Assembly: GCA_044866005.1 (NCBI GenBank)
Contig: JBIOTN010000067.1
Location: 4,899-68,898 of the forward strand
Length of the DNA: 64,000 bases
Direction: 5' to 3'
From: Candidatus Rokuibacteriota bacterium
Lineage (GTDB): Bacteria; Methylomirabilota; Methylomirabilia; Rokubacteriales; DASRDR01
Position numbers and translations under genes: made by a program. This document shows, piece by piece, positions 15,730-47,875 of the stretch. The notes under the pieces are model-generated. The model had not been told where the DNA came from. It was given only the letters and a program-made list of their open reading frames with translations, and searched no databases. Within the stretch, counting starts at the first letter, position 1. Each line of letters opens with the position of its first letter.

Positions 15730-16197
15730 ATGGCCGAGCTGATCCACGTCTCCCGGGTCAGGATCGTGAAGGACAAGGGGCCGGTGCGGCGCGCCTACAT
15801 CGAGCAGTTCCCGGACCCGGTGCGCTACGGCGTCCACGGCGGCATCAAAGACTTCTACGGGGTGGACCCGGTGGAGGAGCTGCCCACCACCCTCGACCAC
15901 GTGATCGCGGCGGTCGCAGGGTGAATGACCGGGACGCTAGCCGGGGCGCTAGCGGCGCGGAAGATCCCGACCCAGCCCGATCGCCTCTCCTCCGAGGTCG
16001 AGGGATTCATCGAGAACGTGGACGGCAAGCCCTTGATCACCCGGATCAAGGTCCACTACAAGCTCCGGGTCCCTCCGGGCAAGCGCGCAGAAGCGCTGCG
16101 GGCGATCGAGGTGCATGAGCAGGGCTGCCCGGCGTCCCAATCAGTCAGGCGCGGCATCGCGATCGAGTGGGACGGCGACGTGCACGAGGAGGCTTGA
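15730..16197 (+). CDS. OsmC/Ohr-family peroxiredoxin with in-frame TGA (15922-15924) at the peroxidatic Cys position; candidate selenoprotein
   Basis: The two ORFs 15730-15924 and 15925-16197 are in frame. The motif HVIAAVAG-[TGA]-MTGTLAGALAAR matches OsmC AAHAAC-FSMALS, and the second Cys GCPASQS is conserved. A hairpin lies 10 nt after the TGA. GAGGAGGAG RBS. Confidence 0.65.
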
Positions 16198-20566: not shown

Positions 20567-23014
20567 CTAGAGCGCCAGCTTCCGCAGGCGGAGGGCGTTG
20601 CCGACGACGGAGACGGAGCTGACGCTCATCGCCGCGCTGGCGACCACCGGGCTCAAGAGCAGACCGAAGACGGGGTAGAGGACGCCGGCGGCGAGCGGGA
20701 CGCCGAGCGAGTTGTAGACGAAGGCGAAGAAGAGGTTCTGCCGGATGTTCCGCATCGTGGCCCGGCTCAGCCGGCGGGCCCGCACGATGCCCCGCAGGTC
20801 GCCCTTGACCAGGGTCACCGCGGCGCTCTCCATGGCGACGTCCGTCCCCGTCCCCATCGCGATCCCCACGTCGGCCTGGGCCAGCGCCGGCGCGTCGTTG
20901 ATGCCGTCACCCGCCATCGCCACCCGCCGGCCCTCGGCCTGGAGGCGCCGGACGACCTCGCCCTTCGCCGCCGGCAGGACCTCCGCCTCGACGCGGTCGA
21001 TCCCGAGCGCGCGGGCGACGGCCTCGGCGGTCGTCCGGCTGTCGCCGGTGAGCATGACGACCTGGAGGCCCTCCTCGCGGAGCAGGCGGATCGCCTCGGC
21101 GCTGGACGGCTTGATGGGGTCGGCGACGCCGAGCAGGCCGGCCGCCCGGCCCTCCACGACGACGAACACGACGGTCTGCCCGTCCTGGCGGAGCTTCTCC
21201 GCCTGACCGGCCAGGACCCCGGGCGCGACGGCCAGCTCGTCCAGCAGCCGCGCGTTCCCGAGCGCCACCGCCCGGCCGTCCACGCGGCCCACCACGCCCT
21301 TGCCGGTGAGCGACCGGAACTCGGTCAGCTCGCCGAGCGCGAGGCCGCGCGCGGTGGCCCCCGCGACGATCGCCGCGGCGAGCGGGTGCTCGCTCCCCCG
21401 CTCGAGCGTCGCGCCGAGGCGCAGGAGCTCCCCGTCGGCGAGGGGCGGCAGGACCACGATGGAAGTCAGGCGCGGCTTGCCCTCCGTGAGGGTGCCGGTC
21501 TTGTCCACCACCACCGTGTCCACCCGCTCCATGATCTCCAGGGCCTCGGCGTGCTTGACGAGCACGCCCGCCGTCGCGCCCCGGCCCGTGGCGACCATGA
21601 TGGACATCGGCGTGGCCAGGCCGAGCGCGCACGGGCAGGCGATGATCAGCACGGCCACCGCGTTCACGAGCGCGTAGGCCAGGCGCGGCTCGGGCCCGAC
21701 GAGCGCCCACGCGGCGAAGGTCAGCCCCGCGATCGCCACGACCGCCGGCACGAAGTACGAGGAGACCACGTCGGCCAGACGCTGGATCGGCGCGCGCGTG
21801 CGCTGGGCTTCGCCGACCATGCGCACGATCTGGGCGAGGAGCGTGTCGCTGCCGACCCGCTCGGCCCGCATGACGAAGCTCCCCGTGCCGTTCACGGTTC
21901 CGCCGGTCACCCGGCTCCCCGGCGTCTTCTCCACGGGGACGGGCTCGCCCGTCAGCATGGACTCGTCGACGGCGCTCGCGCCCTCGAGCACGACGCCGTC
22001 CACGGGGACGCGCTCGCCCGGGCGGACGCGGAGCCGGTCGCCGGGGGCCACCTGCTCGAGCGGCACGTCTTCCTCCGCCCCGGCCTCGCCGAGGCGTCGC
22101 GCCGTCTTCGGCGCCAGCCCCAGCAGCGCGCGGATCGCGCTGCTGGTCCGGCTGCGGGCGCGGAGCTCGAGGACCTGCCCCAGCAGCACCAGCACCGTGA
22201 TGATCGCCGCCGGCTCGAAGTAGACGGGAACCTCGCCGCCGTGGCCGCGGAAGGCGGGCGGGATGAGCCCGGGCGCGAGCGTCGCCGCGACGCTGTACCC
22301 GTACGCCATGCCGATCCCGAGCGCGATGAGCGTGAACATGTTCAGGCTGCGGTTCACGATCGAGGCATAGCCGCGCTGGAAGAGCGGCCAGCCGCCCCAG
22401 AGGACCACCGGCGTGGCGAGGGCCAGCTCGAGCCAGGTCACCGCGCGCATCGACAGCGCGCGCTGGACCGGCTGCCCGGGCCACATGTCCGACATCGCGA
22501 GGACCAGGATGGGGACGGAGAGGAGCAGGCTCACCCGGAAGCGGCGGGACATGTCCACGAGCTCCGGGCTCACCTCGGCCTCGGCCGTCACCGTCCGGGG
22601 CTCGAGCGCCATCCCGCAGATCGGGCAGAGGCCCGGCTCGGGCCGGACGATCTCCGGGTGCATCGGGCAGAAGTACTCGGTCCGGAATGCGGGTGCCGCG
22701 GCGACCGGCGGCTCGAGCGCCATCCCGCACTTCGGGCACGCGCCGGGTCGGGGCTCGCGGACCTCGGGGTCCATCGGGCACGTGTAGCCGCCGGCCGTCG
22801 CCTCCGCCGCCGCGGCGCTCCGGCGCTCGCCGGAGGGCGCCACGTAGCGCCCGGGGTCTGCGCGGAACCGCTCGAGGCAGGAGGGGTGACAGAAGAGGTA
22901 CGTCCGGCCGCCGTAGGCGTGGCGTCCGGCGGCCTCGGCCGGCTCCACCGTCATCCCGCAGACGGGGTCCGTCGCCGCCTGTCCGATCGCCTGCGCCCGC
23001 TCGTCCCCTGTCAT
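20567..23014 (-). CDS. copA: Cu(I)-translocating P1B-type ATPase with N-terminal YHS/TRASH-type metal-binding domains
   Basis: CPC, DKTGT and GDGINDAP motifs; the N-terminus has CGM...FC YHS-like motifs rather than a classical HMA domain; RBS GAGGTGA. Confidence 0.9.
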
Positions 23015-23187
23015 GGCGTCACCTCTACAGAGGGTATACCCGGGCCCGGAGATGCGGGAGCCCCGCGCGGGGGCCGCGCCCGGCCGGCGGAGTGCAAGAC
23101 GCTGCCGGCGCCGGGCGCCGGATGTAGAATGAGCGGGTCCGCGGCGACTGCTGTACTCCGCCTTCGGAGTCTTGGAGGACCACGCGC

Positions 23188-24636
23188 ATGACGACCGCAC
23201 CCAGCGCCAGCTACAGCATGACGATGCGGCTCGAGATCCGGAACCGCCCGGGGATGCTCGGGAAGATCGCCTCCGCGATCGGGAAGGCGGGCGGGGACAT
23301 CGGCGCCGTGGACCTGGTCCAGGTGGGCGCGGGCGTGCTCACGCGCGACATCACGTTCAACGCGCGGGACGAGGAGCACGGCCAGTCGGTCGTCGGGGCG
23401 GTGCGCCGGGTCGCCGGGGTTCGGGTCGTCGCGGTGTCGGACCGCACGTTCCTCATGCACCTGGGCGGCAAGATCGAGGTGCGGGGGAAGGTGCCGGTGA
23501 AGACGCGCGACGACCTGTCGATGGCGTACACGCCGGGGGTGGCGCGCGTCTGCCTGGCCATCCGCGACGAGCCGCAGACGGCCTACGCGCTGACCATCAA
23601 GCAGAACACGGTCGCCGTCGTCACCGACGGCACCGCGGTGCTGGGGCTGGGCGACATCGGGCCGAAGGCCGCCATGCCCGTGATGGAAGGCAAGGCGCTC
23701 CTGTTCAAGGAGTTCGCCGGCGTGGATGCCTTCCCCCTCTGCCTGGCGACCAAGGACGTGGACGAGATCGTCGCGATCGTCCGCGCGGTGTCGCCGGTCT
23801 TCGGGGGCATCAACCTGGAGGACATCGCCGCCCCGCGCTGCTTCGAGATCGAGGAGCGGCTCCGCAAGGAGCTCGACATCCCGGTCTTCCACGACGACCA
23901 GCACGGGACCGCGGTCGTGGTCCTGGCCGCGCTGATCAACGCGCTCAAGGTGGTCAAGAAGAGGCTCGCGGACGTGCGCGTCGTCTTCTCCGGCGCGGGC
24001 GCCTCGGGGATCGCGACGGCGAAGCTCCTCATGGCGGTCGGCTGCCGGCACATCATCGGCTGTGACCGCTCGGGCACGCTCTACCGGGGTCGCCGCGAGA
24101 ACATGAATCCGGTCAAGGCGTGGTTCGCCGAGCACACGAACGAAAAGCGCGTGCGGGGCAGCTGCGGCGACGCCCTCCGCGGCGCCGATGTCTACATCGG
24201 GCTGTCCGGGCCCGGGGTGGTGACGCCGCGGGAGGTGCGGCGGATGGCGCGCCACGCGGTCGTCTTCGCCATGGCGAACCCGGTGCCCGAGATCATGCCG
24301 GAGGACGTCCAGGGGATGGTCCGCGTCATGGCCACGGGCCGGTCGGACTACGCGAACCAGATCAACAACGTGCTCTGCTTCCCGGGCTTCTTCCGCGGCC
24401 TGCTGGACGTGCGGGCGCGGCTGGTGAACGACGAGATGAAGATCGCGGCCGCCCGCGGCATCGCCTCCATCATCGCGGCGAGCGAGCTGGGCGAGGAGTA
24501 CATCATCCCCTCGGTCTTCGACAAGCGCGTGGTCGAGGCGGTGGCGGACGGGGTCGCCCGCGCCGCCGTGCAGACCGGGGTGGCGCGTCGCCGCCGTCGG
24601 CTCCCCGCGGGGGGCGCCGGCCGGAACGGCGCGTAG
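23188..24636 (+). CDS. NAD(P)-dependent malic enzyme with N-terminal ACT domain
   Basis: Malic-enzyme NAD-binding domain; ACT-like N-terminus. Confidence 0.9.
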
Positions 24637-26617: not shown

Positions 26618-26648
26618 TTGACATTCCAGTTAACTGGAAGGATTACCC
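26618..26648 (+). promoter_or_regulatory. MerR-type promoter: TTGACA, 19-bp spacer with perfect palindrome TTCCAGTTAACTGGAA
   Basis: Upstream of the merR-family gene at 26685. Confidence 0.5.
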
Positions 26649-26684
26649 TGTCTGTGTGAGCGATTCGACCAGGGAGAGCCGAGA

Positions 26685-27122
26685 GTGAGCACGCCCCTGA
26701 AGATCGGCGAGCTGGCCGCCAAGAGCGGGGTCGCGGCGAAGACCATCCGCTTCTATGAAGGGGCGGGCGTGCTTCCGGCCCCCAGCCGGGGGGCGAACGG
26801 CTACCGCCTCTACGGCGCCGACGCCCTGGATCTCCTGCGCTTCGTTCGGCAGGCGCGAGGCCTCGGTCTCACCCTCGGGGAGATCAAGGAGCTGGTCGCG
26901 ATCCGCCGGCGCGGGGAGATCCCCTGCCGGCACGTCTATCGGCTGATCGAGGAGAAGGCCGCGGAGTTCGAGCGCAAGCTGAAGGACCTCGCCGAGCTTC
27001 GGGCGGTCCTTCGCCGGAGCCTCCGGTCGGCGCCGCGGCCGTTCCCCCGCGCCGCCGTCTGTCCCCATATCGAGGCTGGGAGCCAGGGGGCTTTCGCCGT
27101 CTCCCGCCCCCGGAAGGCGTAG
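26685..27122 (+). CDS. MerR-family metal-responsive regulator (CueR-like)
   Basis: HTH KIGELAAKSGVAAKTIRFYE; its stop abuts the start of the ATPase gene. Confidence 0.8.
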   Translation: MSTPLKIGELAAKSGVAAKTIRFYEGAGVLPAPSRGANGYRLYGADALDLLRFVRQARGLGLTLGEIKELVAIRRRGEIPCRHVYRLIEEKAAEFERKLKDLAELRAVLRRSLRSAPRPFPRAAVCPHIEAGSQGAFAVSRPRKA

Positions 27123-29537
27123 ATGGCCCTGGCCAAGCTCCAGCTCAAGATTGGCGGGATGGCGTGCTCCTTCTGTGTCGAGACCATCAAGAAAGGCCTC
27201 GGCCGGATCGATGGGGTGGCCGAGGTCGACGTCAGCCTCGCCCACGAGGAGGCGCTGATCGCCTACGACCCCGCCCGGGTGCCGCCGACGCTCGTCCGCG
27301 ATACGCTCCGCAGCCTCGGCTACACGGTTCGGGACCCCACCAAGGTCCGCACGTTCGAGGACGAAGAGGCCGAGCTGGCCCGTGAGCGGGACCGCCTCAT
27401 CCTGGCGGGGGCGGCTGCATGGTCGGCGTTCATGGCCATGCTGCTCATGTGGGTGGGCCGGCACCACCCCGCGGTCCACTGGTTCATGGCCGCGCTCGGC
27501 GCGGGGATGGTCTTCGGGCCCGGCCTCTACATCCTGAAGATGGCGTGGGCCTCCGCTCGCCGGCGGATCCTCAACCAGCACGTCCTTATGGAGGTCTCGG
27601 CGTTCGGCGGCCTCGCCGGCGGGATCATGGGGCTCGTGAAGCCGGTGTTCCCGAGCTACGAGTTCTTCGGCGTCGCCGTCTTCGTCACGGCCTACCACAT
27701 TCTCGGTGGTTACACCTCGCTGCTCGTTCGGACACGCGCCTCCCAGGCGGTGAAGAAGCTGCTCTCGCTCCAACCGCTGACCGCGCGGGTCGTGCGCGAC
27801 GGCGCGGAGGTCGATGTCCCCATGGCCGAGGTCCGGAAGGGCGACCTCGTGCGGGTGCGGCCGGGCGAGCAGGTGCCAGTCGACGGGACCGTTGTGGAAG
27901 GCGCCTCGGCCGTGAACGAGAGCCTGGTCACTGGCGAGCCCCTGCCGCGCGAGAAGCTACCCGGCCAGGAGGTGATCGGCGGCTCGCTCAACACGTCGGG
28001 GACGCTGCTCGTCCGCGTCACCCGGGTCGGCGAGGAGAGCTTCCTCGAGCAGGTGGCGCGCCACATTCAGGAGGCGCGCGCGCTGAAGCCGGGCATCCTG
28101 CTGCTGCTGGACCGGATCCTGAGGTATTTCGTCCCCGGCGTGCTCGCCGTCGGCCTGGCGGCGTTCGGCTTCTGGTCGCTCGGCGCCTGGACGCTCTGGG
28201 GCGCGCCCGACTGGGACCGTGCCGCGTTCGCGGCGCTGGCGGTGTTCGTGATGGGCTATCCCTGCGCGCTCGGGATGGCCATGCCCCTGGCGATGATCCG
28301 CGGGGGCGGCGAAGCCGCCCGCCAGGGGATCCTCATGCGGAGCGCGGCGTCGTTCCAGGCCTTCAAGGACGTCTCGGTCGTCGTGCTCGACAAGACGGGA
28401 ACCATCACGCATGGCCAGCCTCGCGTCGTGGACATCGTCCCGGCCGGCGGTTGGGAGCCGGACGGCGTACTCCGGCTGGCCGCGGCCGCCGAGCAGCCCT
28501 CCGAGCACCCGCTCGGCCAGGCGGTGGTGAAGGCCGCGGAGGCGCGCGGTCTCCAGGTTCCTCAGGCGGCGGACTTCCAGGCGGTGGCCGGCCACGGTGT
28601 CCGGGCCACGACCGACGGCAAGCGGCTCCTCCTCGGGACGCTCCGCTTTCTCGCCGAAGCCGGCGTCCGGACGGACGGACTTGCTGCCGCCGCCGAGGCC
28701 CAGGAGGCCGGAGCCCGGACCGTGATCGCCCTGGCCGCCGACGGCCACCTCGCCGGCCTCATCGCCCTGGCAGATACCGTCAAGCCGGACGCGGCCGAGG
28801 CAGTCGCCCGCTTCCGCGCGGCCGCGATCGAGCCGGTGATGATCACCGGCGACAACCCGCGGACCGCCCGAGCGGTGGCCGAGCAGGTCGGGATCCGGCA
28901 AGTGCTCGCCCAGGTGCTGCCGCAGGACAAGGCGGCCCGGGTTCGGGAGCTCCAGCGCCAGGGCAAGCGGGTGGCCATGGTCGGGGACGGCATCAACGAC
29001 GCTCCGGCGCTCATGCAGGCCGACGTCGGGCTCGCGATCGGCGCCGGCACTGACATCGCCATCGAGTCGGCCGACGTGGTGCTGGTCGGCGAGCGGCTGA
29101 CCGCGGCGGTCGATGCCTACCACGTCGCGCGCCGGACGTACCGGAAGACGGTCCAGAACCTGACCCTCGCCTTCTCCTTCAACGGGGTCGGCGTCCCGCT
29201 GGCGACTACCGGGCTGTTGGCCCCGGTCTGGGCGATGGCCGCCATGGCGGCGAGCGTGACGGTGGTCCTGCTCAACTCCTTCCTCGGCCGCCTCGTGCCG
29301 CAGTGGCGGAGGCGGCAGCCGGAGGTGCAGCAGTTCGCCTTGACGGTCCCGAGCATCCACTGCGACGGCTGCGTGACGATGATTCGCGAGGAGCTGGTCA
29401 AGCTGCCGATGGTCGTGTCCGTGGACGGCGACCCGGTGTCGAAGCAGGTCGTCGTCACGACGCGCGACGGTCAGGGGCAGCTCGCCGCGGTCGAGGAGGC
29501 GATCGCGCGCCTCGGCCACGTGGTGGGGGAACGCTGA
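27123..29537 (+). CDS. P1B-type heavy-metal ATPase with N-terminal HMA (GMACSFC), atypical YPC TM motif and a C-terminal HMA-like domain (HCDGC)
   Basis: [13 protein letters not shown]; 804 aa. Confidence 0.9.
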   Translation: MALAKLQLKIGGMACSFCVETIKKGLGRIDGVAEVDVSLAHEEALIAYDPARVPPTLVRDTLRSLGYTVRDPTKVRTFEDEEAELARERDRLILAGAAAWSAFMAMLLMWVGRHHPAVHWFMAALGAGMVFGPGLYILKMAWASARRRILNQHVLMEVSAFGGLAGGIMGLVKPVFPSYEFFGVAVFVTAYHILGGYTSLLVRTRASQAVKKLLSLQPLTARVVRDGAEVDVPMAEVRKGDLVRVRPGEQVPVDGTVVEGASAVNESLVTGEPLPREKLPGQEVIGGSLNTSGTLLVRVTRVGEESFLEQVARHIQEARALKPGILLLLDRILRYFVPGVLAVGLAAFGFWSLGAWTLWGAPDWDRAAFAALAVFVMGYPCALGMAMPLAMIRGGGEAARQGILMRSAASFQAFKDVSVVVLDKTGTITHGQPRVVDIVPAGGWEPDGVLRLAAAAEQPSEHPLGQAVVKAAEARGLQVPQAADFQAVAGHGVRATTDGKRLLLGTLRFLAEAGVRTDGLAAAAEAQEAGARTVIALAADGHLAGLIALADTVKPDAAEAVARFRAAAIEPVMITGDNPRTARAVAEQVGIRQVLAQVLPQDKAARVRELQRQGKRVAMVGDGINDAPALMQADVGLAIGAGTDIAIESADVVLVGERLTAAVDAYHVARRTYRKTVQNLTLAFSFNGVGVPLATTGLLAPVWAMAAMAASVTVVLLNSFLGRLVPQWRRRQPEVQQFALTVPSIHCDGCVTMIREELVKLPMVVSVDGDPVSKQVVVTTRDGQGQLAAVEEAIARLGHVVGER

Positions 29538-36807: not shown

Positions 36808-38250
36808 TCAGCGTCGTACGCGCCTCGTAGGCAGCAGGGCCCGACTCAGGTGGCGATTCCAGCTCCCGTAGCGCTCTCGGATCGCGCCCCGGGGGAGCGC
36901 CAGGAGGATCACGGCGGCGCCGATGATCATGTCGTTCGACGTCGCACCGACATTCGAGCCGGCGAGCACCCAGGGCGCGACGACGAGCCAGGCCCCGACA
37001 ACGACGTTGACGAGGCGCAAGGGGCGGGCCACTTCCGCCGTCACGATGATGGCCAAAGTCAGGATCAACGCCCCTCCGATGTGGTCGCTGTCCGCAGCCG
37101 GGCCCTCGGCCTGGACCACGGCGGGCGCCGCCATCAGCCAGACGCCAAGCGCCGCGCTGACCAGGAGAGTCCAGGGAGCGCCGATCCCCCACAGCATGGC
37201 CGGGACGATCCGGGAGATCGGTGACCCGTAGCGCGGGGTTCGGAGATCCTTGCCCTCGCGCTCGGTCGTGCCGCCCACCCAGAACGTCCACCAGAAGGGC
37301 TTCCCCTCCCGGACACTCTGGGCGAGGAACTGTCCCATCGCGACGACCTCGTCGAGCGTCAGGGGAATCATCAACAACATGAGGAAGGCCGCCGCCAGAC
37401 AGAGGGTGCACCACTGACCGACGATGACGGGCTGGAGAATGACCAGCACGATGTGGGTGATGCCGAGCGGGACGACGAGGATCCCGAAGAACGTCACCAT
37501 CCATGGCATCGTGCGCCACCGAGTCTGGCCGCCCATGTAGCCCATGAGGGCTTCGAACGTATAGGCCGCCGCGCCCAGCCCCGCGTCCGAGATCGGCCAG
37601 GCACGCGAGACCTCCGAGTGGAGGACGCGCATGGTGCCTTCACCGAAGAACGGTTCCCAGGCGACGTCGACATAGCCGAGCTGGACGGCGGCCAGATAGC
37701 GGGAGATGAACCAGCCGGCGAAGGCGAGCGCGATGATGGGCGTCCGCTGGAGCCAGGAAGACGGATTGTACGTCCATCCGGGCGGGATCTCCGGGCCGGG
37801 CTTCATCATGACCAGATGATGGGCCGCGCCCGGCATCATGGGCACGAGCACCGAGAAGGTGATTGCCAGCGCCCCGACCAGGGTATCGTTGACGTAGGCG
37901 ACCGGGCGTGGCGCCCAGAAGAGGAGCGGCGCAAACTGCAGCCACACGCCGACGAGACACACCGCCCAGCGCCCCGCGAAATCCAGGCGCGGCAAGAGCG
38001 ACAGCGCGCCGAAGCACGCGAGCAGCGCCCCGCTGATCGTGTCGCTCCACGCGGTCGCCGCGCTTTCGTAGCCGAACGTGGCGGGACTACCGATCAGCCA
38101 TACGCCCAGCACCGCGTTCGTCACGTTGGTCCAGAGCCATTTCGCGCGCTGCTGCCGGATCATCTCCAGATGGTCTCGAGCGTGTTCCTGCACCCCGTCC
38201 CGCGGGAGTGGCGCGGCAGGGGCGGCGTGCTCGGGACCTCGCCGGCTCAT
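36808..38250 (-). CDS. Vitamin K epoxide reductase (VKOR)-family membrane protein
   Basis: Polytopic; GQWCTLCLAAAF CxxC in a TM helix. Confidence 0.65.
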   Translation of the reverse strand: MSRRGPEHAAPAAPLPRDGVQEHARDHLEMIRQQRAKWLWTNVTNAVLGVWLIGSPATFGYESAATAWSDTISGALLACFGALSLLPRLDFAGRWAVCLVGVWLQFAPLLFWAPRPVAYVNDTLVGALAITFSVLVPMMPGAAHHLVMMKPGPEIPPGWTYNPSSWLQRTPIIALAFAGWFISRYLAAVQLGYVDVAWEPFFGEGTMRVLHSEVSRAWPISDAGLGAAAYTFEALMGYMGGQTRWRTMPWMVTFFGILVVPLGITHIVLVILQPVIVGQWCTLCLAAAFLMLLMIPLTLDEVVAMGQFLAQSVREGKPFWWTFWVGGTTEREGKDLRTPRYGSPISRIVPAMLWGIGAPWTLLVSAALGVWLMAAPAVVQAEGPAADSDHIGGALILTLAIIVTAEVARPLRLVNVVVGAWLVVAPWVLAGSNVGATSNDMIIGAAVILLALPRGAIRERYGSWNRHLSRALLPTRRVRR

Positions 38251-38265
38251 CGGGCTCTCGCGGCT

Positions 38266-40271: not shown

Positions 40272-40820
40272 GTGCGCGTGCAGCGGATTGCAGGCGGTCG
40301 GCCACACGTGGGGCTCGTCCTCGCGTTGCTCGTCTCCGTCTCGCCCGCGACGGTGTCGGATGCGACCGACGTCCGGCCGGCCGTCGGGCATCGCGCGCCC
40401 GATTTCGTCCTCCGCGATCCGGACGGCCAGCCGGTCGAGCTCTCCCGGATCCTCGGCGAGCACGCCGTCCTCCTCAACTTCTGGGCGACCTGGTGTCCGC
40501 CGTGCCGCGAGGAGATGCCGACGATGGAGCGGGCGTACCGCGACTACAAGGCGCGCGGGCTCACGGTCCTGGCCGTGAGCATCGACGCCGGCAGTGAAGC
40601 ATCCGTCAGGGCGAAAGTGAAGGCGTTCATGAAGGAGCTGAAGCTCACGTTCCCGGCCGTGCTGGACGTCGAGGGCGAGGTCGTGCGCCGCTACCGGCTG
40701 CGCGGCCTCCCCACGACGTTCCTGATCGACCGGACGGGCATGATTCGATCGGAGGAGCTCGGGTTCCGGGACTGGAGCGATGCCGCGGCGCGAAGGAAGC
40801 TGGACGCCCTGCTGAAATGA
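40272..40820 (+). CDS. TlpA/ResA-family periplasmic thiol:disulfide oxidoreductase (Cys form, WCPPC)
   Basis: GTG start; signal/anchor; [13 protein letters not shown]. Confidence 0.8.
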   Translation: [182 protein letters not shown]

Positions 40821-40830
40821 GTCCCCGCCC

Positions 40831-41598
40831 ATGGCGCTGATTCACGAGCTGATGCGGAGCTGGTACCTGGTGCTGAGCCGGTTGAGCGCCGCGCTCACCG
40901 TCCCGGTGAGCGACCTCGCCGACCGGATCGAGCTCCCGCTCCTCACGGTGCTGCTCTTCGGCGTGGTCGGCGCGATGGCGCCCTGTCAGCTCACGACGAA
41001 CCTCTCGGCGATGGCCTACGTCGGGAGCCGCGCCGGCGAGGGCCGGCCCTGGCGCGAGACGCTCGCCTACCTCGCGGGGAAGGCCCTCGTCTACACGCTG
41101 GTCGGCGCCGCCGTCTTCGCGGTCGGCCGGGAGCTCCAGGCGGCGGCCATTCCCGTGGCCATGGCGGCGCGAAAGGCGCTCGGGCCCCTCATGATCCTCA
41201 TCGGCCTGGGGCTGCTGGGGCTCTACCGGCTGCGCGGCTCGCTCGGCGGTCGGCTCTCCGCCTGGCTGCGGACCCGGGCACCGCAGCGCGGCGCGTGGGG
41301 CGCCTTCCTGCTCGGCGTGGCCTTTGCCGGGAGCTTCTGTCCCACGCTCTTCTGGCTCTTCTTCGGCCTGACGATCCCGCTGGCCCTGCGGAGCGCGGCC
41401 GGGTGGAGCTTCCCGGCGGTCTTCGCGGCCGGCACCACGCTGCCCCTCGTCGCGTTCGCCGGGCTGCTCGCGCTGGGGCGCGAGGCCGGCGGGCTGGTCG
41501 AGCGCCTCCAGCGCTCCCACGGGCTCGTGCACCGGATGGCGGGGGTGGTGATCATCCTGGCGGGGATCAACGACACGCTGACGTACTGGGCGCTCTGA
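40831..41598 (+). CDS. CcdA/DsbD-family transmembrane electron transporter
   Basis: Two conserved Cys (MAPCQL, SFCPT). Confidence 0.8.
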   Translation: MALIHELMRSWYLVLSRLSAALTVPVSDLADRIELPLLTVLLFGVVGAMAPCQLTTNLSAMAYVGSRAGEGRPWRETLAYLAGKALVYTLVGAAVFAVGRELQAAAIPVAMAARKALGPLMILIGLGLLGLYRLRGSLGGRLSAWLRTRAPQRGAWGAFLLGVAFAGSFCPTLFWLFFGLTIPLALRSAAGWSFPAVFAAGTTLPLVAFAGLLALGREAGGLVERLQRSHGLVHRMAGVVIILAGINDTLTYWAL

Positions 41599-42836: not shown

Positions 42837-43739
42837 GTGCGAAGACGCATACTGAGCTGGTTTCGGGTCGTAGGAGCGGGGGCGGCGCTGCTCGGGGCGA
42901 CAGGGCTTGCGTCCGCCGCCTCGCAGCATCCTGGCACGGCGAGCTCGACGTTCGAGCATGTCCACGCCCTGGCGATGGACGCCGAGGGCCGGACGCTCTG
43001 GCTCGGGACTCACGCCGGGCTCTTCCGGACCGAAGGCGGGGGACGGTCGTGGGAGCCGGTGGCGCTGCCTGTGCCGGCGGGCCACGCCGACATCATGACG
43101 GTGACCACCGACCCGGGCGATTCCCGGGTGCTCTACGCCGCCACGCACGATGCCGGGGTCTTCAAGAGCGTGGACGGCGGGGCGACGTGGAAAGCCGTGA
43201 ACGCCGGCCTCGGCGGGCTGGACGTCCACGGGCTCGCCGTCGACCCGAACACGCCGTCGAAGCTCCACGCCGCCGTGCGGGACAAGGGCGAGGGGATCTA
43301 TCGGAGCACCGATGGCGGCGGCAAGTGGACGCGCGTGGACGATGGACCCGGCGGCGAGGTCAAGGTCCTGGCCTCGGTCAACATGCCGACGGGGATGGGC
43401 GGCATCTGGCTGTACGCGGGCACGGCCGAGGGGCTTCAGCGGAACCCCGACTGTTTCTGAGGGTGGAAGCTCATGGCGGGCGGTCTGCCCGCCGGAAAGA
43501 CGGTGAACGGCTTCGCGGTGGATCCCACCAATCCGCGCCTGATGTACGTCGCGATGCGGGACGGCCTCTTCCGCAGCACGGATGGCGGCGAGAGCTGGAA
43601 GCCGGTAGGTAAGGGGCTCCGGGACATGGCGGTCGTGGTCGTGAACCCGAAGCGGCCGGCCGAGGTCTACGCGGCGACGACCGATGGGATGATCTACCGG
43701 AGCGCCGACGGAGGAACCACGTGGGAACGCCGGAAGTGA
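42837..43739 (+). CDS. Secreted BNR/Ycf48-like beta-propeller protein interrupted by an in-frame TGA (43458-43460)
   Basis: ORFs 42837-43460 and 43473-43739 are in the same frame. SxDGGxxW repeats lie on both sides of the TGA, and a 7-bp hairpin with a GGUCU loop sits 15 nt after it. Confidence 0.5.
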
Positions 43740-45265
43740 CGACGCTGTCGCGGCGGGACTTCCTCCGCCTGTCGGGCGGGGCCGGGGTCGGCGCCGTGGC
43801 CTTCTCGCTCGGCGGCGGCGTGCTCTCCCGCGCGGGCGCCGCGCCGGCCGGCGGGCGGGGCGTCCGGGAGATCCGGCTCGAGGCGAGCGACCTCACGTGG
43901 GAGCTCGCACCGGGGAAGCGCGTCAAGGCCATGGCCTACGGCGGCCAGGTCCCGGGGCCGGAGCTGCGGGTCAAGGAAGGCGAGCGCGTGCGCGTCATCC
44001 TGACGAACCGCCTCGCCGAGCCGACGACGATCCACTGGCACGGGGTGGACGTCCCGAACGCCATGGATGGCGTGCCGGCGGTCACGCAGAAGCCGGTGCC
44101 GCCCGGCGAGAGCTTCGTCTACGAGTTCGAGGCGCGGCCCGCCGGGACGCGCTGGTACCACACGCACGCCGACGAGCATCGGCAGCTGGACCTCGGTCTC
44201 GCGGCGCCGTTGATCATCGAGCCGGCGACCGCCGAGCCCTTCCCCTTCGACCGCGAGTACACGCTCGTCCTCGACGACTGGGCGACCGGGACGGGTCCGG
44301 CATTGCCGCCGACGCGCGAGGGGATCGCCGGCGCGCGCGGCGGCATGGGCGGGATGATGGGCCGAATGGGCGGCGGCATGGGCCGCATGATGGAAGGGAT
44401 GATGGGCCGGGGCGGCATGGGCGGGATGATGGGCGGCCAGATGTCGGGACGCGGGCACGAGCCGGCCTACGACACGATGACGATCAACGGCAAGGCCTAC
44501 CCGGCGACGACCCCGCTCACCGTGCGGAAGGGCGAGCGGGTCCGCCTGCGGCTGATCAACGCCAGCGCCGACCACACGCACGTGATCCGGCTCGCCGGCC
44601 ACCGCCTCCGGGTCACCCACACCGACGGCAATCCGCTCGTCCAGCCGGTCGAGGTGGACGCGATCCCGATCGCGCCCAGCGAGCGCTACGACGTCCTGTT
44701 CGTGGCCGATCGGCCGGGCGCGTGGTTCCTCCACTGTGTGCAGACCGGTCACCCGGGCGCGGGCGAGCAGGTCGCCGTGGTGTACGAGGGGCACGAGGGC
44801 GAGAGACCCGACCCGCCGGCCGGGGGCGTGGCCGGGCTCGACCTCTGGCAGTACGGGCTCGGCCGGGGCCGGGACGTGCTGCCGCGCGCGTGGGGGGGCG
44901 AGCGCGCGTTCGACCTCCTGCTGAGCGGCGGCATGATGGGCTCGGACGCCTGGACGATCAACGGCAAGCAGTACCCGCGCACGGATCCACTGCGCGTCCG
45001 GAAGGGCGACCGGGTCCGCGTCCGGTTCGAGAACCACAGCATGGAGGCGCACCCGATGCACCTCCACGGGCAGTCGTTCAAGGTCCTCGCCGTCAACGGC
45101 GCCCGGTACGCGGCCCCCATCGTGAAGGACAGCGTGGACGTGGACGCTCACATGGGCTCGGTCGTCGTCGAGTTCACCGCCCACAACCCCGGCGACTGGT
45201 TCCTCCACTGCCACAAGCCCATGCACATGGAGGGCGGCATGATCACCCTCGCCCAGATCGCCTGA
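43721..45265 (+). CDS. Multicopper oxidase (CopA/CueO-like) with Tat signal and Met/Gly-rich insert
   Basis: RRDFL; HWHG, HTH, HCH..H copper ligands. Confidence 0.9.
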   Translation: MGTPEVTTLSRRDFLRLSGGAGVGAVAFSLGGGVLSRAGAAPAGGRGVREIRLEASDLTWELAPGKRVKAMAYGGQVPGPELRVKEGERVRVILTNRLAEPTTIHWHGVDVPNAMDGVPAVTQKPVPPGESFVYEFEARPAGTRWYHTHADEHRQLDLGLAAPLIIEPATAEPFPFDREYTLVLDDWATGTGPALPPTREGIAGARGGMGGMMGRMGGGMGRMMEGMMGRGGMGGMMGGQMSGRGHEPAYDTMTINGKAYPATTPLTVRKGERVRLRLINASADHTHVIRLAGHRLRVTHTDGNPLVQPVEVDAIPIAPSERYDVLFVADRPGAWFLHCVQTGHPGAGEQVAVVYEGHEGERPDPPAGGVAGLDLWQYGLGRGRDVLPRAWGGERAFDLLLSGGMMGSDAWTINGKQYPRTDPLRVRKGDRVRVRFENHSMEAHPMHLHGQSFKVLAVNGARYAAPIVKDSVDVDAHMGSVVVEFTAHNPGDWFLHCHKPMHMEGGMITLAQIA

Positions 45266-45338
45266 CGATGTCGGACGGACGGCGAGGAGGCGAGGGCGGG
45301 AAGTCGCCGCATGGGCCGCTCGGGAGGAGGCCGACACC

Positions 45339-45914
45339 GTGAACCTGTCACGCTGGGGTTGGGGTTCCCGCGCCTCCCGGCTCGGATTGTTGGTGCTGGT
45401 GGGCCTGGCGGCGCCGGCGCTCGCGGCCTCGGGGCCCGGCGACGCGCCCAGGGACCCCTTCGACACCATGGGCGTGCACCGTCCGGCGGAGCCGGCGCCG
45501 GCTCCGGATCTGGCCTTCCGGTCGCTGGACGGTCGCGAGGCGCGCCTGCGCGACCTCCGGGGCAAGGTGGTCCTCCTCGGTTTGTTCCGGACCGACTGAC
45601 CCAACTGCCGGCGGGAGGCTCCCGCCAAGGCGGCGCTGTATCGGGCGTTCCGGGCAAAGGGACTGGAAGTCGTGGGACTCGACCTGGGGGAATCGGCGGA
45701 GATGGTCCGAGCCTTCGCGAGAGAGTTCCAGGTGACGTTCCCCATGTGGCTCGACCCCGCGGGCCAGAGTCCGGCGGCCCTCGGCGTCTACGGGCATCCC
45801 AACACGATCGTCATCGACCGCGAGGGCCGCATCGTCGGCCGCGTCCGGGGCGAGCGTGACTGGGGCACCGACGACGCCCGACGTCTGGTCGAGGTCCTGT
45901 TGAGCCGCCGATGA
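45339..45914 (+). CDS. TlpA/redoxin-family periplasmic oxidoreductase with D-[TGA]-PNC (UxxC); candidate selenoprotein
   Basis: ORFs 45339-45599 and 45672-45914 are in the same frame. GKVVLLGLFRTD-U-PNCRREAP aligns with [21 protein letters not shown] of the Cys paralogue at 40272. Hairpin 10 nt after the TGA. Confidence 0.6.
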
Positions 45915-46651
45915 CCCGGAAAACGGGGCTGGCCAGAATGCCGCGAGCGGCGTGGCTCGCCGGCCTCGTCGTCCTGCACGCCGCCGTCGCCGCCGTGGCG
46001 ACGTGGATGGCGGTCACCGGGCAATGGCCCCGCGCGCTGGGGCTCGGAGCGGCCGGCGAGTCCACGCCGGCGACCCTGGAGACGCTCGGCCGGTACGGCG
46101 AACTGCCGGACTTCCGGCTGACCGAGCGGAGCGGCGACAGTGTGAGCCGGGCCGACCTGCTCGGGAAGGTCTGGGTGGCGAACTTCGTCTACACGCAGTG
46201 CACCGAGACGTGCCCGCTGCAGACGGCCGAGATCGCGCGACTCCAGGCCGAGTTCGTGGGGGAGGCGGACTTCCGGCTCGTCTCGATCACCGTGGACCCC
46301 GAGCGGGATGACACGGCGGCCCTGTCGCGCTACGCGGAGCGCTACGGAGCGGACAGGCAGCGCTGGCTGTTCCTCACCGGGGACAAACGCGCGATCTACC
46401 GCCTCGCCAAGGACGGCTTCCGCCTGGGCGTCGTCGATCCCGACGACCCCGGAGCGAGCCAGACGAGCCTTCTCCACTCCTTCTCACCGGCCGCGGCGTG
46501 GGCGACCCACGGCTCCCAGGGCCTGATCATGCACAGCTCCCGGTTGGTGGTCGTGGACCGGACCGCGACGATCCGCGCCTATCACCTCCCCGACGACCCG
46601 CAATCGCTCGCTCGTCTCCGGCGGAACGTGCGGAGCGTGCTCCACCCGTGA
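45911..46651 (+). CDS. SCO1/SenC-family copper chaperone
   Basis: YTQCTETCP CxxxC; ATGA overlap with the previous gene. Confidence 0.8.
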   Translation: MTRKTGLARMPRAAWLAGLVVLHAAVAAVATWMAVTGQWPRALGLGAAGESTPATLETLGRYGELPDFRLTERSGDSVSRADLLGKVWVANFVYTQCTETCPLQTAEIARLQAEFVGEADFRLVSITVDPERDDTAALSRYAERYGADRQRWLFLTGDKRAIYRLAKDGFRLGVVDPDDPGASQTSLLHSFSPAAAWATHGSQGLIMHSSRLVVVDRTATIRAYHLPDDPQSLARLRRNVRSVLHP

Positions 46652-46784: not shown

Positions 46785-47369
46785 ATGAGGTCGCCGATGC
46801 CTCGCCTCGGAAAGTACGCCATGGTGCTCGTCCCGGCCGTCGGCCTGATCGGGCTCCTCGCCTATGGCTTTAGCCGGGACCCCCGCGACATCCGCTCGCC
46901 GCTCCTCGGGCGCCCCGCCCCGCCGCTGTCGCTGACGCTCTTCGACGGCAGCCGGTTCGTCCTGGCCCAGCAGGCGGACAAGGTCGTCGTCGTGAACTTC
47001 TGGGCGTCCTGGTGCCTGCCGTGCCGGGACGAGGCGCCGCTCCTCGAGGCCGCCTGGGTCGCCTACCGGGAGCGCGGGGTCGTCGTGGTCGGGGTAAACT
47101 TTCAGGACGCGGAGCCCGCCGCGCGCGCCTTCCTCGGTGAGTTCGGCCTGACGTACCCGAACGGGCCCGACGCCGGTGGGCGGATCGCGATCGGCTACGG
47201 CGTCTACGGGATCCCCGAGCTGTTCGTCATCGGGCGGGACGGGCGGATCGCGTACAAGCACATCGGCGCGATCGGGGGGACTGTGCTCGTGGCGAAGGTC
47301 GAAGAGGCCCTCCGCGGCACGGTCAGCGCGAGCGAGGGGCGGAGCGGGCGCTATCAACCGATCCGGTGA
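46785..47369 (+). CDS. DsbE/CcmG-like thiol:disulfide oxidoreductase
   Basis: NFWASWCLPCRDE. Confidence 0.8.
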   Translation: MRSPMPRLGKYAMVLVPAVGLIGLLAYGFSRDPRDIRSPLLGRPAPPLSLTLFDGSRFVLAQQADKVVVVNFWASWCLPCRDEAPLLEAAWVAYRERGVVVVGVNFQDAEPAARAFLGEFGLTYPNGPDAGGRIAIGYGVYGIPELFVIGRDGRIAYKHIGAIGGTVLVAKVEEALRGTVSASEGRSGRYQPIR

Positions 47370-47386
47370 CCGAAAGGAGCCACTCG

Positions 47387-47875
47387 GTGTCGCAGGACGA
47401 TCGGAACGTCGAGCGATCGCGCATCACGCTGCTGGCCGGAGGCCTCGCCCTGGCGCTCACCCTGGCGACCCGGCGGGAATCTCGCGCGGCGCCAACGCCC
47501 TTTCCCGAGGTCATGGTCTACAAGACCCCGACCTGACGCTGCTGCGACGCGTGGGTGGGGCACCTGCGCCAGCACGGGTTTTCGGTGACGGTCGAGAATC
47601 GCACGGACCTCCGGCCGATCAAGGCGAAGCACGCGGTGCCGGCCGAGCTCCAGACCTGTCACACGGCGCTCGTCGGCGGCTACGTCGTGGAAGGGCACGT
47701 GCCGGCCGACCTGATCGTCCGCCTGCTCCGCGAGCGGTCGCCGGTGGCCGGCCTCGCCGTCCCCGGGATGCCGGTCGGGTCGCCCGGGATGGAAGTGCCG
47801 GGGAGCCCGGCGGCCAAATATCAGGTCTTCAGCTTCGACCGGAGCGGCAAGACGACGGTGTTCGCGAGCCGGTGA
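47387..47875 (+). CDS. DUF411/CopG-family periplasmic copper-binding protein with T-[TGA]-RCC (UxCC in place of CxCC); candidate selenoprotein
   Basis: GTG start after AAAGGAG. Signal peptide, then MVYKTPT-U-RCCDAW. The C-terminal half (ORF 47555-47875) is in frame. A 9-bp hairpin lies 12 nt after the TGA. Confidence 0.6.

What the first reader, a model, noticed from the sequence alone, without database searches (positions are those of the whole stretch)
45339..45914. TlpA-like redoxin with UPNC active site next to a Cys paralogue and SCO1
GKVVLLGLFRTD-[TGA]-PNCRREAP aligns residue-for-residue with the WCPPC active site of the TlpA at 40272 ([22 protein letters not shown]).

The gene has a signal peptide and a GGGAGGAGG RBS. 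A 7-bp stem GGCGGGA/UCCCGCC lies 10 nt after the TGA.

It is directly upstream of, and translationally coupled to (ATGA overlap), a SCO1 copper chaperone. TlpA reduces SCO1 in other bacteria, so a Sec-TlpA/SCO1 pair is a plausible variant of a known redox couple.
Basis: partly seen in the sequence, partly recalled or inferred. Interest (0 to 1): 0.72.

Follow-up and report, generated by a model that had tools for sequence, protein, structure and literature searches.

The report
Selenocysteine TlpA-like redoxin in copper cluster
The in-frame TGA is real and almost certainly encodes selenocysteine in an exported thioredoxin-like redox enzyme of an uncultured Rokubacteria-type bacterium; this is a known kind of selenoprotein, unannotated here, and it sits in a copper-handling gene cluster with two more apparent selenoproteins.

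Summary
Window 45339-45914 (+) is one AhpC-TSA/Redoxin domain interrupted by TGA at 45597-45599, exactly where its paralogue at 40272 has the first Cys of WCPPC.

Comparative data make selenocysteine the only reasonable reading:
- The same TGA is present in 49 of 51 related Rokubacteria-type loci (50-70% amino-acid identity) and in 7 of 7 distant Acidimicrobiia relatives.
- The reading frame stays conserved after the TGA.
- The hairpin after the TGA meets all four criteria of the bacterial SECIS model. It shows strong suppression of synonymous change and one compensatory swap.
- TGA is otherwise the normal stop codon in this window.

The protein belongs to the TlpA/ResA superfamily but to no curated equivalog, and public gene calls split it into two fragments. 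UxxC thioredoxin-fold selenoproteins have been known since 2005, so this is a new member of a known kind.

The SCO1 overlap is particular to this genome. The conserved setting is a shuffled copper/thiol-redox cluster: CcdA, a Cys paralogue, SCO1, a multicopper oxidase, and two further conserved in-frame-TGA genes (a CopG/DUF411 protein and a BNR beta-propeller). The reductase role and its substrates are inferred, not shown.

The parts
45322..45330 (+). Shine-Dalgarno-like GGGAGGAGG, 8 nt before the GTG start
   Evidence: read directly from the sequence
45339..45914 (+). Sec-redoxin gene: 191 codons including the UGA, TlpA/ResA-like thioredoxin fold
   Evidence: public gene calls split it into 86-aa and 80-aa fragments
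45339..45428 (+). putative Sec-type signal peptide (MNLSRWGWGSRASRLGLLVLVGLAAPALAA)
   Evidence: read by eye; relatives have comparable N-termini; no predictor was run
45597..45599 (+). UGA read as selenocysteine (U87), first position of U-P-N-C
   Evidence: TGA at the same site in 49 of 51 Rokubacteria-type loci and 7 of 7 Acidimicrobiia loci
45606..45608 (+). TGC for Cys90, the presumed resolving residue of U-P-N-C
   Evidence: invariant in the family alignment
45605..45633 (+). bSECIS hairpin: 12 bp with a 2-nt bulge; core 7-bp stem 45610-45626; apical loop GGC at 45617-45619
   Evidence: meets the four constraints of the bSECIS model quoted in PMC13188914
45795..45800 (+). His153-Pro154; Pro154 aligns with the cis-Pro of ResA; the family motif is G-H-P-[NS]-T
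   Evidence: His is conserved in all Rokubacteria-type members aligned
45911..46651 (+). SCO1/SenC (CTETC motif plus His), start overlaps the redoxin stop (ATGA)
40831..41598 (+). CcdA/DsbD-type membrane electron transporter; its orthologue lies directly downstream of the Sec-redoxin in 8 of 31 informative loci
43721..45265 (+). multicopper oxidase (CopA/PcoA-like, Met/Gly-rich insert), directly upstream
46785..47369 (+). Cys paralogue (WCLPC), DsbE/CcmG-like redoxin
40272..40820 (+). Cys paralogue (WCPPC), ResA/TlpA-like, followed 11 nt later by CcdA

Best explanation
The gene encodes an exported selenoprotein of the TlpA/ResA thioredoxin-fold superfamily.

UGA-87 is decoded as selenocysteine by SelB bound to Sec-tRNA. 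SelB is recruited by the hairpin that begins 10 nt downstream, inside the codons for R-R-E-A-P-A. This gives a U87-P-N-C90 active site in place of the usual C-x-P-C.

The protein most likely works outside the cytoplasm as a thiol/selenol-disulfide reductase. The selenolate of U87 attacks an oxidised Cys-Cys (or Cys-Sec) pair in a client protein. Cys90 resolves the mixed intermediate. The resulting Se-S bond is re-reduced by a CcdA/DsbD-type membrane electron shuttle encoded in the cluster.

The likely clients are the copper-binding Cys or Sec sites of neighbouring gene products: SCO1 (CxxxC), CopG/DUF411 (UxCC here) and the CxU beta-propeller.

What is shown: a conserved Sec codon, a conserved SECIS, the fold family, and the cluster context. 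What is inferred: export, the direction of electron flow, and the identity of the clients.

My confidence by part: genuine selenoprotein about 0.93; CcdA-fed reductase about 0.55; SCO1 specifically as a client about 0.3.
For: - Domain and alignment. The Pfam domain spans the TGA, and U aligns with the first Cys of CxxC in the paralogue and in ResA.
- Conserved TGA. It is at the same site in 49 of 51 Rokubacteria-type loci and 7 of 7 Acidimicrobiia loci. The C-terminal half stays in frame at 50-70% identity.
- No Cys form. None of these loci has Cys at the site. All 120 closest Cys homologues are CxPC types at 50% identity or less.
- SECIS geometry. Loop GGC, 7-bp upper stem, 17 nt between UGA and loop, -20.7 kcal/mol: all four constraints of the published model are met.
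- RNA-level constraint. Codon entropy at codons 91-96 is 0.17 bits, against 1.16 bits at 57 other conserved codons (Mann-Whitney p = 1.5e-4). The rare GCT codon is fixed in 39 of 40 sequences.
- Covariation. A G:C to C:G swap in two distinct sequences forces an Ala-to-Gly change.
- Control. The Cys paralogues have no comparable hairpin at the same position.
- TGA is a normal stop. It ends 27 of 37 genes in the window.
- Three other genes in the window have in-frame TGAs followed by hairpins of the same geometry with G-rich loops. One is an OsmC-like protein, a known selenoprotein kind.
- Lineage. The relatives are Candidatus Rokuibacteriota MAGs. The review PMC13188914 reports 63 predicted selenoprotein genes in a Methylomirabilota MAG. 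That Rokubacteria belong to this phylum in GTDB is my own knowledge.
- Reductase role. CcdA or a Cys redoxin is the immediate downstream gene in 15 of 31 informative loci. The closest solved structures are ResA and TlpA. TlpA is known to reduce ScoI and CoxB (Abicht 2014, as cited in PMC7558416).
Against: - No selA, selB, selC or selD gene and no tRNA-Sec was found in the window or in 30 related loci. The rest of the genome could not be read.
- The hairpin alone is not significant against shuffles in this 71% GC sequence: z = -0.6 for 64 nt and -1.8 for 40 nt.
- The upper stem is nearly invariant, so covariation rests on one swap.
- Two relatives carry CGA (Arg, L001) and TCA (Ser, L022) instead of TGA.
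- A C-P-x-C-type dipeptide is more typical of oxidising family members such as DsbA and glutaredoxin (my own knowledge), so the reductase direction rests only on the CcdA linkage.
- SCO1 adjacency is not conserved.
- The Acidimicrobiia clade has no copper context.
Confidence: 0.72

Rival explanations
1. The protein is a genuine selenoprotein, but it works as a copper(I)-binding protein or chaperone rather than as a reductase. Copper would be bound by the selenolate of U87, the thiolate of C90 and the invariant His153 next to the cis-Pro loop. This would resemble the CxxxC + His site of Sco.
For: - His at the position before the cis-Pro (G-H-P-[NS]-T) is conserved in all Rokubacteria-type members and most Acidimicrobiia members. 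The Cys paralogues have Leu or Ile there.
- In thioredoxin folds this residue packs against the first active-site residue (my own knowledge).
- The gene sits among copper genes: a multicopper oxidase, SCO1, CopG and P-type ATPases.
- Sec in predicted metal-binding proteins has precedent (PMC13188914).
Against: - The Acidimicrobiia clade keeps U-P-N-C without any copper context, and three of its members have Gln instead of His.
- Linkage to CcdA points to redox cycling.
- No geometry could be measured, because the structure tool returns no coordinates.
Confidence: 0.12
2. The protein is a genuine selenoprotein that acts as an oxidase or isomerase (DsbA-like direction), forming or shuffling disulfide or selenylsulfide bonds in exported cluster proteins.
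For: - The U-P-N-C motif has Pro in the second position, as in CPHC and CPYC proteins, unlike the CxPC of its reducing relatives (for the motifs; redox trend from my own knowledge).
- A VKOR-family oxidant gene lies in the window at 36811-38265.
Against: - The VKOR gene is on the other strand, 7 kb away, and is not part of the conserved cluster.
- CcdA, a supplier of reducing power, is the recurrent neighbour.
- The nearest characterised relatives, ResA and TlpA, are reductases.
Confidence: 0.08
3. The UGA is recoded, but not as Sec. It might be read as Cys by a SelB-dependent non-canonical tRNA, or by generic readthrough.
For: SelB-dependent UGA-to-Cys recoding has been described (Vargas-Rodriguez 2018, listed in the references of PMC13582414). 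No Sec machinery could be examined here.
Against: - Such systems are rare.
- The lineage is reported to be rich in selenoproteins.
- If Cys were inserted, TGC or TGT variants would be expected among about 50 relatives. None was seen.
Confidence: 0.03
4. This is not a coding feature: a pseudogene with a nonsense mutation, a sequencing error, or two separate small genes.
For: Public gene callers report two fragments of 86 and 80 aa. L001 and L022 show that the codon can change by one base.
Against: - The TGA is conserved in about 50 diverged loci, with purifying selection on both halves.
- Two other assemblies carry the same TGA, although both are essentially the same sequence as the window and so add little independent weight.
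- Neither half is a complete thioredoxin fold.
Confidence: 0.01

Closest known systems
[quoted passage not shown] Sources: Zhang et al. 2005 (PMC1088965) and Table 1 of PMC13188914.
   Same: AhpC-TSA/Redoxin fold, Sec in the first position of a UxxC motif, a bSECIS inside the coding sequence, and widespread Cys homologues.
   Different: I could not obtain the representative sequences, so identity with any of these families is untested. This clade has a fixed U-P-N-C-R-R-E-A-P motif and no Cys-form orthologues among about 58 loci. It occurs in Rokubacteria (plus an Acidimicrobiia branch) and lies in a copper cluster. The earlier families came from marine metagenomes and deltaproteobacteria.
TlpA of Bradyrhizobium (PDB 1jfu, 4txo), the periplasmic reductase of ScoI and CoxB.
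   Same: Same superfamily (phmmer E 1.8e-16), extracytoplasmic, genetically linked to a Sco protein, and a plausible common job of keeping copper-binding cysteines reduced (PMC7558416).
   Different: 71.8 bits against a cutoff of 230 for the TlpA equivalog. UPNC rather than CVPC. Sec instead of Cys. A cleavable-looking signal peptide rather than a membrane anchor (the anchor is from my own knowledge).
ResA of Bacillus subtilis (PDB 3c71, 1st9), the CcdA-dependent reductase of apocytochrome c.
   Same: The best solved relative (E 3e-20 over 122 residues). Linkage to a CcdA-type transporter.
   Different: 85.9 bits against a cutoff of 170 for the ResA subfamily. No cytochrome c maturation genes in the cluster. 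Sec active site.
[quoted passage not shown]
   Same: Selenoproteins of the ResA/TlpA superfamily.
   Different: 48.8 bits against a cutoff of 300. Motif U-G-C rather than U-P-N-C. The NF041054 model is much longer (354 positions).
ScsD, the TlpA-like member of the Salmonella Scs copper-tolerance system (recalled from memory, not tested here).
   Same: A TlpA-like periplasmic redoxin encoded in a copper-tolerance cluster together with a DsbD-like membrane reductase.
   Different: A Cys protein. No sequence comparison was made here.

Membership tests
Bacterial selenoprotein (Sec-UGA plus bSECIS) | In-frame UGA conserved among diverged orthologues, with the frame conserved downstream | tested here: met
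   TGA in 49 of 51 Rokubacteria-type loci and 7 of 7 Acidimicrobiia loci; the C-terminal half is 50-70% identical
Bacterial selenoprotein (Sec-UGA plus bSECIS) | Homologues carry Cys at the position aligned with U | tested here: met
   U87 aligns with the first Cys of WCPPC in the window paralogue and with the active-site Cys of ResA. The 120 best database hits are CxPC proteins.
Bacterial selenoprotein (Sec-UGA plus bSECIS) | bSECIS consensus: 3-9 nt apical loop, 4-16 bp upper stem, G in the first two loop positions, 16-37 nt from UGA to loop, MFE at or below -7.5 kcal/mol (PMC13188914 Fig. 2 legend) | tested here: met
   Loop GGC, 7-bp upper stem (12 bp in all), 17 nt spacing, -20.7 kcal/mol. 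Synonymous-site suppression p = 1.5e-4. One compensatory swap.
Bacterial selenoprotein (Sec-UGA plus bSECIS) | selA, selB, selC (tRNA-Sec) and selD present in the same genome | not testable with these tools
   None in the 64-kb window or in 30 loci. The rest of the MAG could not be reached. The only support is indirect: three other TGA-plus-hairpin genes in the window and literature on the phylum.
Bacterial selenoprotein (Sec-UGA plus bSECIS) | Selenium physically incorporated at the UGA position | not testable with these tools
   Needs 75Se labelling or mass spectrometry.
TlpA-like / redoxin thioredoxin-fold superfamily (Pfam PF00578, PF08534) | Score above the Pfam gathering threshold across the domain | tested here: met
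   AhpC-TSA 77.8 bits (cutoff 26), Redoxin 64.1 bits (cutoff 26.6)
TlpA-like / redoxin thioredoxin-fold superfamily (Pfam PF00578, PF08534) | xCxxC-type active site and a cis-Pro loop at the aligned positions | tested here: met
   UPNC aligns with CPHC/CEPC of ResA, and Pro154 with the ResA cis-Pro (L-P-T-T)
TlpA proper (NCBIfam NF047696 equivalog) | Score at or above the curated cutoff of 230 bits | tested here: not met
   71.8 bits
ResA (NCBIfam NF002854 subfamily) | Score at or above the curated cutoff of 170 bits | tested here: not met
   85.9 bits
ResA-like WAxxUGC selenoprotein (NCBIfam NF041054) | Score at or above 300 bits, and the WAxxUGC motif | tested here: not met
   48.8 bits; the motif here is [WTSAD]-U-P-N-C
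Peroxiredoxin (including Sec-Prx, TxxU) | PxxxTxxC/U motif, with the peroxidatic residue in the second position of the CxxC equivalent | tested here: not met
   Sec is in the first position (UxxC). There is no Pro at -7. Thr at -3 is absent in the window and in L006 (R-T-D-U).

The most novel reading that the evidence does not exclude
The redoxin is one component of a previously undescribed periplasmic copper-handling module in Rokubacteria that contains three selenoproteins. The three are the Sec-redoxin (UPNC), a Sec form of CopG/DUF411 in which Sec replaces the first Cys of the copper-cluster CxCC motif, and a BNR/Ycf48-like beta-propeller with a C-F-U motif. In this reading, selenolates are used both as copper ligands and as the dedicated reductant that keeps those Se/S sites reduced in a copper-rich oxidising compartment. 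Neither CopG nor a BNR propeller appears among the 119 prokaryotic selenoprotein families catalogued in 2026 (PMC13188914 Table 1).
Probability: 0.3. Interest if true: 0.7.

Novelty: new member of a known kind. Interest (0 to 1): 0.45.

Why it matters
The gene is mis-annotated as two fragments in public gene calls, as are its roughly 50 relatives held here that carry the TGA. Recognising it restores a complete exported redox enzyme.

It also shows that this copper-homeostasis cluster of soil and groundwater Rokubacteria depends on selenium at three positions. This links two trace-element economies (Se and Cu). It offers a natural system, in which no Cys form of this redoxin was found, for asking what selenium buys an extracytoplasmic thiol-disulfide oxidoreductase, for example resistance to copper-catalysed over-oxidation or the ability to reduce Se-S bonds.

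On its own, another UxxC redoxin selenoprotein would not surprise a specialist.

Tried and rejected
- Rfam scan of the whole window at gathering thresholds: no hits. Rfam appears to have no model that captures this bSECIS.
- ARAGORN on the window and on 30 related loci: no tRNA at all, so no tRNA-Sec.
- Hairpin stability against shuffles: not significant for the 64-nt stretch (z = -0.6) and marginal for 40 nt (z = -1.8). In 71% GC sequence, stability alone cannot carry the argument, so I used synonymous-site and covariation tests instead.
- Search for a formate dehydrogenase or sel genes among the larger window ORFs: none. The same-frame neighbours at 26634/27123 are a MerR regulator and a copper P-type ATPase, not a split selenoprotein.
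- Attempts to extend beyond the window through exact look-ups of two window proteins: not on record with those start codons.
- Copper context for the Acidimicrobiia clade: absent. Its neighbours are trpC, LigT, glyoxalase and transporters.
- Peroxiredoxin reading: rejected on motif position.
- Genetic-code reassignment: rejected, because TGA ends 27 of 37 genes.
- Structure prediction was not run. The tool returns no coordinates, so it could not test the U87/C90/H153 geometry, and the fold is already clear from sequence.
- Haft and Tolstoy 2025 (PMC12013261) could not be read.

Full report
**1. What is in the sequence**

Window 45339-45914 (+) translates to a 191-codon frame with a single internal stop, TGA at 45597-45599...GKVVLLGLFRTD*PNCRREAPAK....

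With the stop replaced by Cys, Pfam AhpC-TSA (E 8.9e-22, residues 54-166) and Redoxin (E 1.6e-17) cover both sides of the TGA. Neither the 86-aa piece nor the 80-aa piece is therefore a complete domain.

BLASTP against the paralogue at 40272-40820 gives 37% identity (E 3e-27) and places the TGA exactly on the first Cys of WCPPC.

- GGGAGGAGG lies at 45322-45330, 8 nt before the GTG start.
- The N-terminus looks like a signal peptide ending in A-L-A.
- A 7-bp stem GGCGGGA/UCCCGCC starts 10 nt after the TGA.
- An ATGA overlap joins the gene to a SCO1/SenC gene at 45911-46651 (Pfam E 6.5e-25).

Two Logan assemblies from other sequencing runs carry the identical TGA. They are 99-100% identical to the window and probably the same population, so they exclude an error in one assembly but do not count as independent lineages.

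**2. Is the TGA a sense codon?**

A protein search found one full-length close relative, P0001 (66% identity), plus C-terminal fragments. At the DNA level P0001 has CGA (Arg) at the site. The fragment P0004 turned out to start just after an in-frame TGA at the same site.

An unbiased locus search used one peptide pattern on either side of the gene. It returned 46 metagenomic and 13 genomic loci. Reading the codon in each gave these results:

| Group | Codon at the site |
|---|---|
| Rokubacteria-type loci (50-70% aa identity) | TGA in 49 of 51; CGA in L001; TCA in L022 |
| Distinct 54-nt sequences within that group | TGA in 35 of 37 (plus L031) |
| Distant Acidimicrobiia / 'Ca. Poriferisodalis' loci (29-42% identity; WFWAPW-U-PNCRREAP) | TGA in 7 of 7 |

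No locus has TGC or TGT. The C-terminal half is conserved in frame everywhere.

TGA is otherwise the usual stop in this window, ending 27 of 37 gene ends, including this gene's own stop. The recoding is therefore site-specific and not a change of genetic code.

**3. The RNA element**

The 40 nt from the UGA fold into a 12-bp hairpin with a 2-nt bulge and a GGC loop (-20.7 kcal/mol). The published bacterial SECIS model has four constraints (Fig. 2 legend of PMC13188914), and all are met:

| Constraint | Model | Here |
|---|---|---|
| Apical loop | 3-9 nt | 3 nt |
| Upper stem | 4-16 bp | 7 bp |
| G in the first two loop positions | required | GG |
| UGA-to-loop spacing | 16-37 nt | 17 nt |
| MFE | at or below -7.5 kcal/mol | -20.7 kcal/mol |

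Stability against shuffles is unimpressive in this 71% GC DNA (z = -0.6 and -1.8), so I tested for evolutionary constraint instead.

- In a codon alignment of 40 family members, the six codons forming the upper stem and loop (R91-A96) have a mean codon entropy of 0.17 bits. The 57 other amino-acid-conserved codons average 1.16 bits (Mann-Whitney p = 1.5e-4).
- The T-ending Ala codon GCT, which supplies the U that closes the loop, is fixed in 39 of 40 sequences although GC3 is about 0.9.
- Two distinct sequences (four loci) carry a G:C to C:G swap at one stem pair, and it costs an Ala-to-Gly replacement.
- The Ser variant L022 is the only sequence with a mismatch at that pair (G15 to A).
- The Cys paralogues have no comparable hairpin at the equivalent position: -12.1 and -14.5 kcal/mol, with different shapes.
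- In the Acidimicrobiia clade the conserved element is a different hairpin, GCGCC-UGC-GGUC-GCA-GCGC, with a GGUC loop 26 nt from the UGA. The peptide PNCRREAP is kept nonetheless. That motif is therefore constrained at the protein level as well.

**4. Does this organism use Sec?**

No sel gene or tRNA-Sec is present in the held sequence, and I could not reach the rest of the genome. Indirect evidence is good.

A scan for in-frame TGAs flanked by coding-like sequence found three more sites in the window:

| Gene | TGA position | Motif |
|---|---|---|
| OsmC-like | 15922 | VAG-U-MTG, with the second-Cys CP motif downstream |
| BNR/Ycf48-like beta-propeller | 43458 | DCF-U-GW |
| CopG/DUF411 | 47534 | PT-U-RCC |

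- OsmC-like proteins are a known selenoprotein kind.
- The propeller and CopG TGAs are conserved in 17 of 17 and 6 of 6 related genes held.
- All three sites are followed by GC-rich hairpins with G-rich loops, 17-21 nt from the UGA.

The relatives are Candidatus Rokuibacteriota MAGs. A 2026 review reports a Methylomirabilota MAG with 63 predicted selenoprotein genes, and Sec-type hydrogenases are reported in that phylum. That GTDB places Rokubacteria in this phylum is my own knowledge.

**5. What kind of protein**

The closest solved structures by sequence are B. subtilis ResA (E 3e-20) and Bradyrhizobium TlpA (E 1.8e-16). The alignment covers the active site and the cis-Pro loop.

NCBIfam places the protein in no curated equivalog:

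| Model | Score (bits) | Cutoff (bits) |
|---|---|---|
| ResA subfamily | 85.9 | 170 |
| TlpA equivalog | 71.8 | 230 |
| ResA-like WAxxUGC selenoprotein | 48.8 | 300 |

The active-site dipeptide is P-N, whereas all 120 nearest Cys homologues are CxPC.

An invariant His precedes the cis-Pro (G-H-P-[NS]-T). The Cys paralogues have Leu or Ile at that position.

It is not a peroxiredoxin. Sec is in the first, not the second, position of the CxxC equivalent, and the PxxxT element is missing.

**6. Context and likely function**

In the window the gene lies in a run of same-strand genes, several with overlapping stop and start codons:

1. multicopper oxidase (CopA/PcoA-like, Met-rich)
2. Sec-redoxin
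3. SCO1
4. DsbE-like Cys redoxin
5. CopG (Sec)
6. orf117
7. YtkA/CopD-like membrane protein

Upstream of this run are a ResA-like Cys redoxin, CcdA, a metal-ribbon/DUF2933 protein, a methyltransferase and the Sec beta-propeller. Farther away are two copper-type P-type ATPases and a MerR regulator.

Across relatives the same gene set recurs, but in shuffled order:

| Position relative to the Sec-redoxin | Gene | Count (informative loci) |
|---|---|---|
| Immediately upstream | beta-propeller | 9 of 27 |
| Immediately upstream | SCO1 | 3 of 27 |
| Immediately downstream | CcdA | 8 of 31 |
| Immediately downstream | Cys redoxin | 7 of 31 |
| Immediately downstream | SCO1 | this window and L041 only |
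| Anywhere in the held locus | SCO1 | 15 of 45 |
| Anywhere in the held locus | CcdA | 14 of 45 |
| Anywhere in the held locus | multicopper oxidase | 8 of 45 |

The recurrent CcdA linkage and the ResA/TlpA relationship point to a CcdA-fed extracytoplasmic reductase. TlpA reduces ScoI and CoxB before metallation (Abicht 2014, via PMC7558416). CopG binds a tetranuclear copper cluster through its CxCC motif (Hausrath 2020, via the same review). The copper-site cysteines or selenocysteines of SCO1, CopG and the propeller are therefore the obvious candidate clients.

This step is inference. The rivals are direct Cu(I) binding through U87, C90 and H153, and an oxidase or isomerase role suggested by the C-P-x-C-like motif.

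The Acidimicrobiia branch has no copper context. The chemistry of the UPNC site is therefore probably general, and the copper link specific to the Rokubacteria clade.

**7. Comparison with what is known, and novelty**

UxxC selenoproteins of the AhpC-TSA/Redoxin/TlpA-like fold have been predicted since 2005. Examples are 'Prx-like', 'thiol-disulfide isomerase-like cd02966', 'Redoxin family PF08534' and 'UGC-containing TlpA family'.

This gene is another member of that kind. It is unrecognised by public gene calls, which list 86-aa and 80-aa fragments, and by curated models. I could not test whether it coincides with one of the catalogued families.

The less ordinary aspect is the company it keeps. 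Two neighbouring genes with conserved TGAs belong to families (CopG/DUF411 and BNR propeller) that are absent from the 119-family catalogue. No paper in the library pairs DUF411 with selenocysteine.

**Verdict**

- The Sec interpretation is supported (about 0.93).
- The specific SCO1 partnership is plausible but not conserved.
- Novelty: new member of a known kind.
- Interest is moderate. It would be higher if the three-selenoprotein copper module holds up.

Noticed in passing
window 42837-43739 (+), TGA at 43458-43460: A BNR/Ycf48-like beta-propeller gene is split by an in-frame TGA in the motif NPDCF-U-GWK. It scores below the cutoff for NCBIfam F510_1955 (129 bits against 175). The same TGA is present in 17 of 17 related genes held. 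It is followed by a conserved hairpin with a GGUCU loop. This is a candidate CxU selenoprotein that is not in the 2026 catalogue. It is the most frequent upstream neighbour of the Sec-redoxin.
   Followed up: partly
window 47366-47875 (+), TGA at 47534-47536: A CopG/DUF411 gene has TGA in place of the first Cys of the copper-cluster CxCC motif (VYKTPT-U-RCC). The TGA is conserved in all 6 related DUF411 genes held (L001, L006, L023, L026, L054, L055). It is followed by a 9-bp hairpin with a GGG loop. The family is not in the selenoprotein catalogue, and no paper pairs DUF411 with selenocysteine.
   Followed up: partly
window about 15750-16197 (+), TGA at 15922-15924: An OsmC-like gene has an in-frame TGA at the first catalytic Cys position (VIAAVAG-U-MTGT), a downstream CP motif and a hairpin. 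This is a known selenoprotein kind (OsmC-like) and supports Sec decoding in this genome.
   Followed up: partly
L001 1003-1005 and L022 4202-4204: Two relatives carry CGA (Arg) and TCA (Ser) at the Sec position. Each is one base away from TGA, and neither is Cys. L022 also has a mismatch in the SECIS stem. These may be real losses of Sec or assembly errors; this is unresolved.
   Followed up: no
L057-L063, about 10001-10400: A distant UPNC redoxin clade in Acidimicrobiia ('Ca. Poriferisodalis', 29-42% identity) keeps the TGA and the peptide UPNCRREAP. It uses a different, more distal hairpin (GGUC loop) and has no copper genes nearby.
   Followed up: partly
window 20570-23338 (-), 26634-29537 (+), 36811-38265 (-): The wider window is a metal/redox island. 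It holds two heavy-metal P-type ATPases (one with YHS and HMBD domains, one with HMA domains preceded by a MerR regulator) and an SPW-VKOR fusion that could be a periplasmic thiol oxidant.
   Followed up: no
L026 4630-5174, L027 552-1090, L036 502-1040, L054 1523-2070, L055 5034-5356: In several related loci the tblastn hits to the Cys redoxin or the Sec-redoxin are split into two adjacent pieces. This suggests frameshifts or assembly errors in those contigs. L054 clearly loses the frame just after the hairpin.
   Followed up: no
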